From Gammaproteobacteria bacterium (lineage in GTDB: Bacteria; Pseudomonadota; Gammaproteobacteria; JAJFKG01), in the NCBI GenBank assembly GCA_965116795.1, contig OZ220716.1:160001-224000 (forward strand): DNA of 64,000 nucleotides, given 5' to 3'. Below are positions 5,673 through 9,656 of this stretch, piece after piece. Position 1 is the first letter of the stretch. The number at the start of each line of letters is the position of its first letter. Made by a program: the position numbers and the translations under genes. Below the pieces are notes generated by a model. The model made no database searches, was not told the origin of the DNA, and saw nothing but the letters and a program-made list of their open reading frames with translations.

Positions 5673-5913
5673 CCACCTCACCATCAGCTGATGTAAAGTG
5701 GTAAATTAGCAGCCCAATAATAACATTATGTTAATTATATTGGCATGTTATCATGGAAGTATTACGTTAGTATTGCATGTGACTTGGAGTATATCTACAA
5801 TTTTAGTGTTAAGAATTTCGCACAAAATCGAATAATTAAGAAATAAGCGCACGCTGTATTACCAAAAAATTAAGCGCTGCAAACATTATTTGGCATAATT
5901 TCATGGAGTATTT

Positions 5914-7611
5914 ATGGATGATATAAAAAGAAATAATGAAAATGTTAATAGTGATGTACTTATAAAAAAACTAAAAGAAGATATCGCATTACTGAAAGAA
6001 AAACATCAACAAGACTTAATTAATCAAAAAGATTATTATGAATCAATTATTGCTACGATGCCTGGACATGTTTATTGGCAAGACACGAATAACACCTACC
6101 TTGGATGTAATGATTTACAAGCCAAAAATGCAGGATTAGCCTCTCGTCACGATATTGTTGGTAAAAAGCTCTCTGACATGTTAGGAGCTGAACAAGCCAA
6201 AGTACTCGATAATATTAACGAAGAAATTATACGAACGGGTAAGCCATATGTTTCAGAAGAGTATGCTGTTATGAAGAATGGCGAAGCCATTTATTTATCA
6301 CACAAAGCACCACTAAGAAACAGACAAGGAGATATTGTTGGTTTGCTTGGTATCTCGATTGATATCACTGAACGTAAACAAATGGAAGAAAGGCTATTAA
6401 AAACAACTCAAGAGGCCCTAGAAGCAAATCGTGTAAAAACAGAATTTATCATGAACATGAGCCATGATATACGTACACCGTTTACTGGGATTTTAGGATC
6501 AGCATTTATTCTGCAAAGAAATGCTAGCACTGCAGAACAGCAAGAATTAATAGGTTATATAACCGAATCAGCTGAGCAGCTACTCAAGTTTGTCAATGAA
6601 ATATTGGATGAAATTTGCTGTGATTATGAACATAATCAACAGCTGTCGTTATTTAACATCGAAGATTTATTAAAAACAATCAAACAAATGATGGTCGCAA
6701 CCATAAATCATAAAAACTTAAATCTTCATATTGAATACCCTACTAATGCACCAGCACATATCATTGGAAATAAATTATTTATTAAACAAATCTTGCTAAA
6801 TTTGGTTAGTAATGCAATTAAATTTACTGAAAAAGGTACTGTTACGCTAAGTGCTTCTTTTAGTCAAAGAGAAGCAAATGATGTCACTTTAATTATTCAG
6901 GTTAGAGACACTGGGATTGGGATCCCCAAAGACAAGCAACAAGTTATTTTCGAGAAGTTTACTCGTTTAACCCCGTCATACAGCAGTGATTACGCTGGTA
7001 GTGGACTCGGGTTATGGAAAACAAAGCAATTGTTAACACAATTAAATGGTACCATCGACGTTGATAGTCAGGAAAGCCAAGGCTCTATCTTCACCTGTAA
7101 GATTCCACTACGGATATCTACAGGTATTGATAATTCGACTCAATCAGCTACAACTGATAAAAAATCGAAAAACATACCTGAATACACAGATCACCCAGTG
7201 AAAAACAGCTCTACACCAACTCTACGTTTTCTATTGGTTGAAGATGACATAATTGCAACCAATGTTATTAAATATATGCTCACTGAATATTTTAACTGTC
7301 AATTAGATATTGCAAGTACTGGCAAAGTTGGTATTGATTTAACGAATCGCCATATTTATGACTTAGTAATTCTTGATATTGGATTGCCTGATCAAAGTGG
7401 ATTTAATGTCGCTAAGCAAATTTATCAACACTCTGCCCACAATCAACAGTCACCTATTATAGGACTAACGGCACATCAACCTGCTGACTGGGTACATGAA
7501 GAAAATCAACAATTCTTTAAGGCTATCTATAACAAACCCTTATCATACGAAATATGTGCACAAATTGCTTCTATAACCAATATTAGTCTTTCTAAGGATA
7601 AAAAGGACTAG
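5914..7611 (+). CDS. Soluble hybrid sensor histidine kinase (coiled coil-PAS-HisKA-HATPase-REC)
   Basis: PAS (MPGHVYWQD...YLGCN...GISIDITERK), H-box NMSHDIRTP, N-box NLVSNAIKFT, G1 DTGIGI, G2 GSGLGL, REC LLVEDD...LDIGLPD...LTAH...KP. No transmembrane segment. Confidence 0.93.
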   Translation: MDDIKRNNENVNSDVLIKKLKEDIALLKEKHQQDLINQKDYYESIIATMPGHVYWQDTNNTYLGCNDLQAKNAGLASRHDIVGKKLSDMLGAEQAKVLDNINEEIIRTGKPYVSEEYAVMKNGEAIYLSHKAPLRNRQGDIVGLLGISIDITERKQMEERLLKTTQEALEANRVKTEFIMNMSHDIRTPFTGILGSAFILQRNASTAEQQELIGYITESAEQLLKFVNEILDEICCDYEHNQQLSLFNIEDLLKTIKQMMVATINHKNLNLHIEYPTNAPAHIIGNKLFIKQILLNLVSNAIKFTEKGTVTLSASFSQREANDVTLIIQVRDTGIGIPKDKQQVIFEKFTRLTPSYSSDYAGSGLGLWKTKQLLTQLNGTIDVDSQESQGSIFTCKIPLRISTGIDNSTQSATTDKKSKNIPEYTDHPVKNSSTPTLRFLLVEDDIIATNVIKYMLTEYFNCQLDIASTGKVGIDLTNRHIYDLVILDIGLPDQSGFNVAKQIYQHSAHNQQSPIIGLTAHQPADWVHEENQQFFKAIYNKPLSYEICAQIASITNISLSKDKKD

Positions 7612-8954
7612 GGGTATCCAGGCGATTGTGGCTGTGTATTTCCGTTGATTCCCGGCGATAATCTTCCTCCTTTGTCTCCGTCTTTGAAGATACCAAATTG
7701 ATTATGACCATTAGCAAAACCTTGTTTAGCACCTTGTTGTTGAGCTTCATGTTTAGGGGGAGAGTTTGGGGGAGATATGCGCTGTTGTTTACTACGTTTC
7801 TCCTCCACATAGTGAACAGCAAAAGCCGCCCACCATTTAGGATCAGTACTAACTTGCATTAAAAGAGGGGCTACCTCACTTAATGGACCATCGTCATGCA
7901 TACTTGGTGGACTAACACTGAGAGAGCTACTATCACTAGAAGGAGAACTGCTACTAGAGAGGGAACTACTACTAGAGGGAGAAACACTATCAATAGGAAG
8001 GTAATATTCTTCTTCCTCTTCTTGTTTTTTGACTTTTAACTCAATTTTTATTAGTGGCGTTGGCTTTTTTTGAAATTTCGCTTGTACCAATTGCATTGCA
8101 TCGTTAACTGGCCTAGGCAAAGAGCCAGGATACAACATTGCATCAATTGCTCCTGCCCCCTTAATAAAAACGATAGCAGCAAGCAAACTTGCTTCTACTT
8201 TCATAAATTCAGCTATGTTGAGCAGCCCAATTTCTTTTTTCAAATTACTGACTATCTGCTTTATCTGTTCTTTTCGGGGTAAAGAAGCATGTTGATTCAA
8301 ACTTTGAACAAGTTTATCCCGGCGCTTTTCGGCCGCTCCTTTTAAATGTTCCCTATATTGTTGATTTTCACTGTATTGCTTTAAGATATGCTGCTGAATA
8401 ACAAGAAGAGTCGTTATTTCTCCTGATGAAATATTTTCACAGGAAAATTTTAACATTTGCTGCCAACGGACAATTTTAAATTTTCCAGCAGCGTACTTAT
8501 TGATGACATCAATTCTATCATCAGTACTTAAGTTTCGCTCATTAAAGTGAGCTATTACAGCATCTGCGGAACGTTCAAGCTGTGATACGCTGGCAGCTAT
8601 GCGTTCAATGACATCTTGCGTCAAGAAAGTACGACAATTAGCAGTAAACCAATCATCACCTAGCACTATAGCGTCATGCTGTAATTCATTTGCTCGTTCT
8701 AATGGTAAACCTTTTTCAGCATTAAGATTGAATTGTTGTGGTTCATCAACTAGGAAAAAAGTCGTTTTTTCAAATCGTCCAATTGTCTCAGCAAACCATG
8801 CTGGAAATTGATGCGGCAAAAATGCCTCATTATTGCCACATACACTTACTAACGCTAAGGCATGGCTATGTTCTGGTACTACGTTACTCTGTTTTAGATT
8901 GCTAAATGATACCTCGATAGTATCGTGTTCTTTTATTTTTTTATTCTTGGGCAT
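7608..8954 (-). CDS. Putative divergent tRNA-dependent cyclodipeptide synthase (CDPS, XYP-like) with Ser/Pro-rich C-terminal extension
   Basis: Motifs appear in CDPS order: ALALVS37V-G-N, TTFFLVDEPQQFNL, AIVLGDDWFTAN, FKIVRW, F250MKVE254A, MLY275P276G. A low-complexity tail of about 140 aa follows. Confidence 0.6.
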   Translation of the reverse strand: MPKNKKIKEHDTIEVSFSNLKQSNVVPEHSHALALVSVCGNNEAFLPHQFPAWFAETIGRFEKTTFFLVDEPQQFNLNAEKGLPLERANELQHDAIVLGDDWFTANCRTFLTQDVIERIAASVSQLERSADAVIAHFNERNLSTDDRIDVINKYAAGKFKIVRWQQMLKFSCENISSGEITTLLVIQQHILKQYSENQQYREHLKGAAEKRRDKLVQSLNQHASLPRKEQIKQIVSNLKKEIGLLNIAEFMKVEASLLAAIVFIKGAGAIDAMLYPGSLPRPVNDAMQLVQAKFQKKPTPLIKIELKVKKQEEEEEYYLPIDSVSPSSSSSLSSSSSPSSDSSSLSVSPPSMHDDGPLSEVAPLLMQVSTDPKWWAAFAVHYVEEKRSKQQRISPPNSPPKHEAQQQGAKQGFANGHNQFGIFKDGDKGGRLSPGINGNTQPQSPGYP

Positions 8955-9536
8955 TATACATCCCCCCCTGTTGTCAAATTACCTTAAATCTCTCCCTTGC
9001 TACTTTCACCCCACTCTCCTACAGTAAGGCATATTAAAATTATTTCTATTTCTACGTTTTGAAGCTAAATTATTTTTTCATTTTTATGTGAAAATTTAAG
9101 GCTGACCTTATTGGTTTCAGACCGCAGTGTCAAGCTTATTTATGGTAATCATTATCGTTCTTTCCTAATGAATGTATCCTAGACAATGTTTACACATGTT
9201 AGACTATCAAATAGGGCACTAAAAACTAAACGGTAGATCATTGTAATACGCTAAAATATTGCCTCACACTCAAACGTTGCTAGTAATAGCATCAGCTTCT
9301 CGCCTTGTGTATTCTTGGGAAAGACATCATAGCAACTGGCCTACGATTTTCTTTGCTATTAAGGAAAATAATTGCGCATTATTACACCTATCACCTACTG
9401 TTGCTAACGCTGATTAAGTGAAGACCACTTCTACTGTTAATTAACCACTACTCGAGGCTGATAAGAAAAAGACTGATATTTACTTATTTTACGTGATGTT
9501 CGACTTTCTATGTAATAGTGTAACGAGCTGATTATT

Positions 9537-9574
9537 CAGATCCCAGATAGCCGTTCCACGGCTTCTGGAATAAC
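9537..9574 (-). repeat. Degenerate CGTC-type REP-like palindrome
   Basis: Minus strand GTTATTCCAGAAGCCGTGGAACGGCTATCTGGGATCTG has the same GTCAT-stem-GGATC layout as other copies in the window. Confidence 0.5.
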
Positions 9575-9656
9575 ACCTCAACGCACAGAGGCTCTATTAA
9601 GTTGTTTTTGAAAGCAAATTTATATTAGCCTTTTTAGATTAAAGTCAAACATGGCA

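What the first reader, a model, noticed from the sequence alone, without database searches (positions are those of the whole stretch)
5700..9650. Candidate new signalling module: CDPS-like synthase paired tail-to-tail with a soluble PAS hybrid histidine kinase
Seen: an AT-rich two-gene islet between core genes. A cytoplasmic PAS-HisKA-HATPase-REC kinase (5914-7611, +) and a 448-aa ORF (7608-8954, -) converge with overlapping stop codons (CTAG). The 448-aa protein shows CDPS motifs in the right order: LVS37V-G-N, FLVDxxQxxNL, LGDDW-N, IVRW, FxxxE254, Y275P276. Known: CDPSs use aminoacyl-tRNAs via Ser37/Tyr178/Glu182/Tyr202 (AlbC numbering), the XYP subfamily has Tyr-Pro at the last motif, and CDPSs usually sit beside tailoring enzymes. 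None are present here. Inference: the pair may be a synthase-receptor circuit in which a diffusible diketopiperazine is sensed by the PAS domain, analogous to LqsA/LqsS or LuxI/LuxR. Alternatively it could report aminoacyl-tRNA status.
Basis: partly seen in the sequence, partly recalled or inferred. Interest (0 to 1): 0.85.

Follow-up and report, generated by a model that had tools for sequence, protein, structure and literature searches.

The report
Cyclic-dipeptide synthase paired with matching sensor
This two-gene island encodes a very divergent member of an enzyme family that makes tiny ring-shaped dipeptides, next to a soluble sensor kinase whose sensing domain accompanies this enzyme type across dozens of Legionella-like genomes, so the pair is likely an untested chemical signal-and-receptor circuit.

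Summary
Both genes and their CTAG overlap are real. The 448-aa protein is a divergent XYP cyclodipeptide synthase (CDPS) homolog (profile E 6e-11, structural Z 23 to 5OCD). It groups with the long Legionellaceae enzymes that make cyclo(Ala-Ala). It keeps Ser37, Glu182 and Tyr202-Pro, but has Phe for catalytic Tyr178, so activity is uncertain. The pairing is not chance: 56 of 63 CDPS-like genes in 33 other genomes, and 27 of 30 in its own clade, abut a PAS/kinase gene. The window's PAS domain matches those clade partners (17 of 27 at 58% or more), although gene orientation and kinase cores vary. The closest solved PAS is the autoinducer receptor VqmA, whose ligand-binding lysine is kept. Best reading: a cognate cyclodipeptide synthase/receptor pair (0.6); binding and product are untested. 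One 2018 paper noted PAS domains near CDPSs and guessed quorum sensing; my searches found no description of the module. This scan found the same pairing before on other DNA (three earlier notes). The island is missing from a congener and abuts a repeat-truncated cpoB.

The parts
5914..7611 (+). Soluble hybrid histidine kinase, 565 aa: N-terminal helical segment, PAS, HisKA (His184), HATPase, receiver (Asp488)
   Evidence: same architecture as 4 of 6 fully read partners of clade CDPSs
6031..6393 (+). PAS domain (residues ~40-160) of the VqmA-like subfamily; Lys131 aligns to VqmA Lys101
   Evidence: 45-64% identical to the 27 clade partners
7608..7611 (.). CTAG overlap of the two stop codons
7608..8954 (-). 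448-aa long-form XYP cyclodipeptide synthase homolog, intact reading frame
8025..8930 (-). CDPS catalytic domain (residues ~9-310) with helical insertions; Ser37, Glu254 (=Glu182), Tyr275-Pro276 (=Tyr202-Pro) kept; Phe250 at the Tyr178 position
7611..8024 (-). Ser/Pro-rich low-complexity C-terminal tail (residues 311-448); a short central motif is shared only with P0003; function unknown
9487..9662 (.). ~175-bp dispersed repeat with imperfect inverted ends (MITE-like; inference), 19 further full or partial copies in the genome, at the right junction of the island
9657..10046 (-). Truncated cpoB (129 aa; trimerisation domain only), ending inside the repeat
5130..5672 (+). Conserved 180-aa hypothetical gene at the left flank; in the congener G001 it converges directly on full-length cpoB (empty site)

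Best explanation
The 448-aa protein is a divergent XYP cyclodipeptide synthase homolog that likely makes a small cyclic dipeptide from charged tRNAs, and the neighbouring soluble kinase likely binds that product in its VqmA-like PAS domain and changes its phosphorylation, which would make the island a cognate synthase/receptor signalling pair. Shown: fold and family of the synthase; intact kinase motifs; near-obligate linkage of CDPS and PAS-kinase genes; the PAS subtype tracks the CDPS clade. Inferred: product a small (Ala/Gly-type) diketopiperazine, from kinship to the cyclo(Ala-Ala) group and a bulkier P1 lining (roughly L,L,F,V,W,..,M against LLLAWAVI); output reduced or altered by Phe250; Lys131 hydrogen-bonding a ring carbonyl as VqmA Lys101 does; relay from Asp488 through the genome's single Hpt protein to one of its response regulators. 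The signal may count cells, sense confinement in a host vacuole, or report charged-tRNA supply inside the cell; the data do not separate these.
For: Profile of the protein plus its four phmmer relatives (no canonical CDPS included): 7 of 8 PDB hits at E<=1 are CDPSs, best 5OCD E 5.6e-11. AF2 model pLDDT 90.9, Z 23.1 to 5OCD. Groups with 29 family-f55 enzymes (FastTree support 0.80); one of them (L190) matches by eye the published sequence of CDPS 28, which makes cAA 95%. Linkage: 56 of 63; 27 of 30 in the clade; 26 of 29 within 2 kb of a PAS hit in 10 genomes against at most 2.9% by chance. Three orientations occur in the clade (head-to-head, co-oriented, tail-to-tail), so the link survives rearrangement. 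The PAS is 53-64% identical to six fully read clade partners whose kinase cores are only 27-39% identical. Among 88 PAS domains of the first survey the two closest belong to clade partners. Across 38 pairs CDPS similarity correlates with PAS (rho 0.21, p 0.016) but not with the kinase core (rho -0.14, p 0.91). The best PDB match of the PAS profile is VqmA (E 1.4e-12); the Lys101 equivalent is Lys in 77 of 81 PAS domains at CDPS loci against 4 of 8 others.
Against: Phe250 replaces Tyr178; Y178F 'substantially impairs' AlbC (PMC5935735), and all 30 family-f55 clade members keep Tyr. The VqmA aromatic pair F67/F99 is not kept (L/I and S/T), the window PAS alone does not hit VqmA at E<=0.01, and the Lys also occurs in PAS domains with no CDPS neighbour. 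No PQ-loop transporter gene lies in this island, unlike many short-form cassettes. 7 of 63 CDPS-like genes and 2 of 30 clade members (plus 1 at a contig end) lack a neighbouring sensor. The Mantel test is weak and not corrected for kinship; tree supports are 0.80-0.89. Several long forms elsewhere lack the catalytic Ser yet stay beside a kinase, which fits a non-catalytic role. No expression, product or binding data.
Confidence: 0.6

Rival explanations
1. The CDPS-like protein is a slow or dead enzyme that binds aminoacyl-tRNA and controls the kinase by direct contact with its PAS domain, so the pair is an intracellular sensor of charged-tRNA status with no diffusible signal.
For: Phe at Tyr178 is shared with the 55%-identical P0003, so it is old and tolerated; long forms lacking the catalytic Ser remain beside kinases; direct contact would also give PAS-CDPS co-variation.
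Against: The clade's characterised members are active cAA synthases; all 30 family-f55 members keep the four catalytic residues; the same PAS subfamily also sits beside unrelated biosynthetic enzymes (NRPS, PLP enzyme), which argues for small-molecule sensing.
Confidence: 0.13
2. The kinase is a dedicated regulator of the synthase gene that senses some other cue; the cyclodipeptide acts on the host or competitors, not on the kinase.
For: Head-to-head order in 27 of 30 clade loci is typical of regulator/target pairs (general knowledge); Aravind 2010 proposed host manipulation for CDPSs of intracellular bacteria.
Against: Does not explain why the PAS domain, and not the kinase core, tracks the synthase type; most short forms are co-oriented with the kinase downstream (33 of 48); no DNA-binding regulator lies in the island.
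Confidence: 0.12
3. The long-tailed synthase is exported by the Dot/Icm system and works on host aminoacyl-tRNAs; the product may then return to the bacterial kinase as a report on the host cell.
For: The genome has IcmL/DotI above cut-off; the tail is Ser/Pro-rich and low in complexity, as in many other long forms; resemblance of such tails to effector tails is recalled, not tested.
Against: No translocation signal was tested; the acidic run lies ~130 residues from the C terminus; CDPS 28 works on E. coli tRNAs; DotA was not detected with its Pfam model, which rang in no control; one paper search found no CDPS described with Dot/Icm.
Confidence: 0.07
4. The family pairing is real, but this copy is a decaying passenger of a recent insertion with no current function.
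For: The island is absent from the congener's site, lies beside a dispersed repeat and a broken cpoB, and the synthase has lost Tyr178.
Against: Both frames are intact with all kinase motifs; P0003 shares Phe250 and the tail motif at only 55% identity; no letter differences inside either gene were listed in the four runs laid.
Confidence: 0.08

Closest known systems
cAA group of XYP CDPSs from Legionellaceae (CDPS 28, L. longbeachae LLB_2968; CDPS 29, Fluoribacter dumoffii; Gondry 2018, PMC5816076)
   Same: Same clade (support 0.80), insertions and extra C-terminal region as Gondry describes, 29% identity over 185 aligned columns to L190; the L190 gene sits head-to-head with a 556-aa PAS-HisKA-HATPase-REC kinase whose PAS is 60.5% identical to the window's.
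   Different: Only ~20-29% identical; Phe at Tyr178; different P1 lining; an unrelated tail; tail-to-tail instead of head-to-head; a different bacterial family. In the passages and supplement rows seen, Gondry does not discuss neighbouring kinases.
Fdum-CDPS (PDB 5OCD), Nbra-CDPS (5MLQ), Rgry-CDPS (5MLP)
   Same: Fold: Z 23.1, 21.3 and 18.4; rmsd 2.7-3.7 A over 219-224 residues.
   Different: 13-16% identity; the window protein has ~80 extra residues in the domain and a 138-aa tail.
VqmA/DPO quorum-sensing receptor of Vibrio cholerae (6IDE, 6UGL, 6KJU; the name VqmA for these entries is recalled, the residue numbering matches the paper read)
   Same: Best structural relative of the PAS profile; cytoplasmic PAS binding a small amino-acid-derived six-membered ring; Lys101, Asp85 (as Glu) and Asp71 (as Asp/Asn) positions kept.
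   Different: VqmA is a PAS-LuxR transcription factor, not a kinase; DPO is not made by a CDPS; F67/F99 are not kept.
LqsA/LqsS/LqsT/LqsR (Legionella) and CqsA/CqsS (Vibrio)
   Same: Logic of a synthase gene clustered with a histidine-kinase receptor. 8 of 60 CDPS loci carry a ~335-aa regulator like PDB 6SY9 (E 4.8e-57; 6SY9 = LqsR is recalled).
   Different: LqsA makes an alpha-hydroxyketone with a PLP enzyme and LqsS is a membrane kinase; here the enzyme is tRNA-dependent and the kinase soluble. No LqsR-like gene is in this island; three lie elsewhere in the genome.
Skinnider et al. 2018 (PMC5767969) remark on PAS domains near CDPS genes
   Same: States that PAS domains were among the commonest non-biosynthetic domains within 2.5 kb of CDPSs and that the products may be quorum-sensing metabolites.
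   Different: Two sentences; no kinase architecture, taxa, PQ-loop genes, co-variation or VqmA homology in the section read; no experiment.

Membership tests
Cyclodipeptide synthase (CDPS) | Rossmann-like CDPS fold related to class Ic aaRS | tested here: met
   (the model's alignment contained canonical CDPSs; one search is independent of that)
Cyclodipeptide synthase (CDPS) | Catalytic Ser37 | tested here: met
   S37 invariant in A3, aligned to the 5OCD Ser
Cyclodipeptide synthase (CDPS) | Glu182 and Tyr202 | tested here: met
   E254, Y275
Cyclodipeptide synthase (CDPS) | Tyr178 | tested here: not met
   Phe250; also Phe in P0003 and in 4 of 63 other CDPS-like ORFs. Filed therefore as a CDPS homolog, not as a proven active synthase
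Cyclodipeptide synthase (CDPS) | Score above the Pfam PF16715 cut-off | tested here: not met
   the model also misses most canonical Legionellales-type CDPSs found with A3
Cyclodipeptide synthase (CDPS) | Forms a cyclodipeptide from two aminoacyl-tRNAs | not testable with these tools
   needs expression and LC-MS
XYP subfamily | Tyr-Pro at positions 202-203; structure closer to XYP than to NYH enzymes | tested here: met
   Y275-P276; Z 18-23 to XYP structures against 14-16 to AlbC, YvmC, Rv2275
cAA specificity group (Legionellaceae) | Same clade, insertions and C-terminal extension | tested here: met
cAA specificity group (Legionellaceae) | P1 motif LLLAW[AS G][VI][IV] | tested here: not met
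   window reads L,L,F,V,W,(ambiguous pair),M by mapping on the columns; group motifs
Hybrid sensor histidine kinase | HisKA His, HATPase N/G boxes, receiver Asp/Thr/Lys | tested here: met
VqmA-type ligand-binding PAS | Lys101 that binds the ring carbonyl | tested here: met
VqmA-type ligand-binding PAS | F67/F99 aromatic stack | tested here: not met
   Leu and Ser in the window; works like VqmA at best, not a VqmA
Synthase/receptor quorum-sensing pair (Lqs/Cqs/Lux logic) | Synthase and receptor genes linked across genomes | tested here: met
Synthase/receptor quorum-sensing pair (Lqs/Cqs/Lux logic) | Product is released, binds the receptor and gives a density-dependent response | not testable with these tools
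   needs bench work
Dot/Icm effector | C-terminal translocation signal and transfer into host cells | not testable with these tools
   IcmL present; no signal predictor available

The most novel reading that the evidence does not exclude
Legionella-like intracellular bacteria carry an unrecognised family of cyclodipeptide signalling circuits: up to five synthase/PAS-kinase pairs per genome, each VqmA-like PAS subtype tuned to its partner's diketopiperazine, some with a PQ-loop carrier or LqsR-like regulator. This would give diketopiperazines their first dedicated, genetically linked receptors. The window's pair would be a divergent channel of the cyclo(Ala-Ala) type with an altered product or output, and the same PAS-kinase chassis is re-used beside NRPS and PLP-dependent synthases.
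Probability: 0.5. Interest if true: 0.88.

Novelty: new variant of a known kind. Interest (0 to 1): 0.7.

Why it matters
Cyclodipeptides have long been proposed as bacterial signals, but the reported cases use borrowed receptors such as orphan LuxR proteins, and the purpose of CDPS products in intracellular bacteria has been open since 2010. A synthase with a linked, co-varying, soluble receptor makes the question testable with one small PAS domain and commercial ligands. It would add a signalling layer to Legionella-like bacteria, give a ligand class for a common orphan PAS subfamily, and offer orthogonal small-molecule sensor pairs for synthetic biology. An annotated example also lies beside the renieramycin NRPS genes on a sponge-symbiont plasmid.

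Tried and rejected
Single-sequence Pfam, NCBIfam and PDB searches gave nothing relevant for the 448-aa protein; PF16715 did not ring in the genome. The single-sequence AF2 model failed (pLDDT 35). ESM Atlas gave CDPS clusters at 0.83-0.84, a lead only, and nothing for the tail. Word-indexed homolog searches found only self. P0004 (1735 aa, repetitive) is a spurious hit and was dropped. Of 16 PF16715 places, L032, L033, L034 and L037 were judged chance and dropped. The metagenome pattern scan found no relative, so the neighbours of P0003 and P0006 are unknown. Complex prediction of synthase with PAS was not available, so direct binding is untested. The promoter/terminator scan was at or below shuffle level. 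Rfam gave nothing above chance. No RNA holder was listed. A plasmid search with P0007 gave no match. Rejected: the tail-to-tail overlap as the key feature (it is 7 to 8 of 63 elsewhere); the kinase as the orthologue of the congener's CDPS-linked kinase on the basis of its core (core 45% identical, but PAS outside the 21 closest); a LqsT-like reading (not tested by sequence; dropped).
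Full report
OBSERVATION. The window holds a 565-aa ORF at 5914-7611 (+) and a 448-aa ORF at 7608-8954 (-) that share CTAG at 7608-7611. The first has PAS_4, HisKA, HATPase_c and receiver domains above their cut-offs, no membrane segment, and intact His184, N/G boxes, Asp488 and Lys541. 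The pair has 36.4% GC against 41.2 +/- 3.4 for the genome (6th percentile). In the congener G001 the left flank gene converges directly on a full 318-aa cpoB, so the site is empty there. In the window cpoB is cut to 129 aa, its TPR half was not found in the genome, and the cut lies in a ~175-bp repeat with 19 other copies. The island is therefore an insertion in this lineage, or a loss in G001; the broken cpoB favours insertion (inference). The genome is one 2.45-Mb contig, 97.7% complete, in an order with three genomes, and has IcmL/DotI.

THE 448-AA PROTEIN IS A CDPS HOMOLOG. Alone it has no relevant hit. A search of 1.84 billion representatives gave six hits: itself, P0003 (55%), a spurious repeat protein (dropped) and P0005-P0007 (27-31%). 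A profile of the protein with those four relatives and no canonical CDPS gave 8 PDB hits at E<=1; 7 are CDPSs, best 5OCD at 5.6e-11. Profile-profile comparison with canonical enzymes gave probability 99.4. An AF2 model on a 50-row alignment (pLDDT 90.9; the rows include canonical CDPSs, so the model is not independent) matches 5OCD at Z 23.1, rmsd 2.7 A over 219 residues, ahead of NYH enzymes (Z 14-16) and TyrRS (Z 12). Ser37, Glu254 (=Glu182) and Tyr275-Pro276 are in register. Position 178 is Phe250, as in P0003; Y178F substantially impairs AlbC (PMC5935735, passages seen; PMC11580168 passages list Y178 as conserved in both subfamilies). Residues 311-448 form a Ser/Pro-rich tail with a short motif shared only with P0003.

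ITS CLADE. The five-sequence profile found 30 long proteins in 28 of 149 scored genomes of family f55. One (L190) matches by eye, over the ~400 residues shown, the sequence of CDPS 28 in the Gondry 2018 supplement (L. longbeachae LLB_2968; cAA 95%, cAP), so f55 is taken as Legionellaceae and the clade as the cAA group, which that paper describes as having insertions and an extra C-terminal domain (PMC5816076: passages and supplement rows seen). The window protein groups with 29 of them (the 30th, L181, is P0007, also in the group) at FastTree support 0.80. All 30 keep Ser, Tyr, Glu and Tyr. The window's P1 lining maps as L, L, F, V, W, an ambiguous pair, M against LLLAWAVI, so a small residue is plausible but the product cannot be predicted.

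THE PAIRING IS NOT CHANCE. A 14-row CDPS profile matched 34 of 400 class genomes at 63 places, with at most five candidates scored per genome, so a floor. I fetched all 62 places other than the window as 59 regions. They hold 63 CDPS-like ORFs (one extra partial ORF; L132 was added by hand). 56 of 63 lie within 1.2 kb of a PAS or kinase-core ORF; the misses are L097, L104, L112, L116, two fragments in L088 and a partial ORF in L126. In ten genomes chosen for having CDPSs, 26 of 29 lie within 2 kb of a PAS-subfamily hit (hand count), against at most 2.9% of sequence by chance; kin are not independent, so no p-value is claimed. G002 has five pairs out of five. In family f55, 27 of 30 clade genes are head-to-head with a PAS kinase; one is at a contig end and two are unpaired second copies within the 1.5-kb flanks. 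Co-oriented (L092, L123) and tail-to-tail (window, L117) forms occur in the same clade.

THE SENSOR DOMAIN TRACKS THE SYNTHASE. Among 88 other PAS domains of the first survey, the two closest to the window's (62%, 59%) belong to the partners of clade members L092 and L123; L117's ranks ninth. The 27 f55 partners are 45-64% identical, 17 of them 58% or more. In six fully read partners the PAS is 53-64% identical but the kinase core only 27-39%; four are PAS-HisKA-HATPase-REC hybrids like the window's, two lack the receiver. The window's PAS falls in a group of 33 (support 0.88) made of 27 of the added domains, the partners of L092, L117, L123 and two from L118. Over 38 pairs with full cores (690 cross-genome comparisons) CDPS similarity correlates with PAS similarity (rho 0.21, p 0.016) and not with the core (rho -0.14, p 0.91); the nearest CDPS's partner PAS is in the top tenth in 50% of cases, the core in 16%. 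This test is weak and uncorrected for phylogeny. Together these results say that the two genes in the window are a cognate pair and not casual neighbours.

WHAT THE PAS MAY BIND. A 50-row PAS profile has five PDB hits; the best three are 6IDE, 6UGL and 6KJU (E 1.4e-12), which I recall as VqmA and whose numbering fits the VqmA paper. VqmA binds DPO through F67, F99 and a hydrogen bond from K101 to the ring carbonyl, and K101R abolishes binding (bioRxiv 2019.12.19.881847, passages seen). The window's Lys131 aligns to K101 and is Lys in 77 of 81 PAS domains at CDPS loci against 4 of 8 others; F67 and F99 are replaced. The window PAS alone does not reach VqmA. A diketopiperazine has the same kind of ring carbonyl (chemistry; inference). 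Of 20 sampled PAS kinases without a known CDPS, one had a weak CDPS and eight abut NRPS, PLP, FAD or SDR/ATP-grasp enzymes; the rest have housekeeping or unknown neighbours, and no control was run.

MECHANISM. Most likely (0.6): the synthase takes two small aminoacyl-tRNAs and releases a cyclodipeptide, perhaps slowly; the product binds the PAS pocket at Lys131 and shifts His184 to Asp488 transfer; the genome's one Hpt protein passes the phosphate on. Only fold, motifs, linkage and co-variation are shown. Rivals are direct synthase-PAS contact (0.13), a kinase that only regulates the synthase gene (0.12), a decaying passenger (0.08) and export of the synthase into host cells (0.07).

WHAT IS IN PRINT. 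Skinnider 2018 (PMC5767969, section 9 read) reports PAS domains among the commonest non-biosynthetic domains near CDPSs and speculates on quorum sensing. Aravind 2010 (PMC2922099, passages) notes CDPSs in intracellular bacteria. A 2026 quorum-sensing review (PMC13220807, passages) lists diketopiperazine signals with orphan LuxR receptors. A survey of Legionella quorum-sensing genes (PMC8023197, term search) has no mention of cyclodipeptides; the L. lytica genome paper only lists a CDPS cluster (PMC11828895, passages); PMC10653808 gave nothing relevant. Searches (listings only, apart from the papers named) found no paper describing a CDPS/PAS-kinase module or a VqmA link. The library lacks most subscription papers (Jacques 2015 and the XYP structure paper were not seen), and bioRxiv supplements were closed. 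This scan reported the pairing before on other DNA (e1-6546215, e1-751963, e1-969666); these are unchecked AI notes, seen after my own co-occurrence result and, for the third, after the CDPS 28 match. The listings of those notes did not show the VqmA lysine or the PAS-versus-core contrast.

VERDICT. A real, intact, divergent instance of a widespread and uncharacterised CDPS/PAS-kinase module. The logic (synthase plus receptor) is known; this chemistry-receptor combination is only hinted at in print. New variant of a known kind; interest 0.7.

Noticed in passing
window 9487-9662; 19 other places in G000: A ~175-bp intergenic repeat, 70-90% identical between copies, with imperfect inverted ends; MITE-like. 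This copy marks the truncation of cpoB. No Rfam match above chance.
   Followed up: partly
window 9657-10046: cpoB is cut to 129 aa and its TPR half was not found in this 97.7%-complete single-contig genome, whereas the congener G001 has the 318-aa gene; a natural truncation in the Tol-Pal operon.
   Followed up: partly
L139-L158 (20 PAS kinases with no known CDPS neighbour): One more weak CDPS (L155); others abut NRPS genes (L146, L152, L156, L157), a class I/II PLP aminotransferase (L141; LqsA/CqsA likeness is recalled), FAD oxidoreductases (L151, L153) or an SDR plus ATP-grasp (L145). The PAS-kinase chassis may be re-used with many small-molecule synthases. No control was run; 20 were sampled of roughly 40 such genes.
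   Followed up: partly
L210 4432-7072 (MK748464.1, plasmid p-ren): An unannotated CDPS (QCC21406.1, 'hypothetical') lies directly before a PQ-loop/PAS-PAS kinase (QCC21405.1), two genes from renA of the renieramycin cluster in Ca. Endohaliclona renieramycinifaciens.
   Followed up: partly
L080, L089, L091, L101, L102, L103, L210: The PQ-loop unit that is a separate ~100-aa gene in many cassettes is fused to the N terminus of the kinase here.
   Followed up: partly
L086, L095, L099, L108, L111, L114, L124, L128: CDPS-kinase cassettes followed by a ~335-aa response regulator like PDB 6SY9 (recalled as LqsR).
   Followed up: partly
L116, L121, L122, L125, L130: Long CDPS-like proteins with Cys, Thr or Lys at the catalytic Ser column (alignment-dependent); 4 of these 5 still abut a PAS kinase.
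   Followed up: no
G000:C1:604081-605400: A paralogous 439-aa kinase shares the closest kinase core (46%) with the window's kinase but has no PAS domain and no CDPS neighbour.
   Followed up: no
G000:C1:382884-383426: IcmL/DotI above cut-off: the organism likely has a Dot/Icm-type secretion system.
   Followed up: partly
window 4084-4347 (-): 87-aa glycine-zipper lipoprotein-like ORF between nadE and mutH (by eye; not searched).
   Followed up: no
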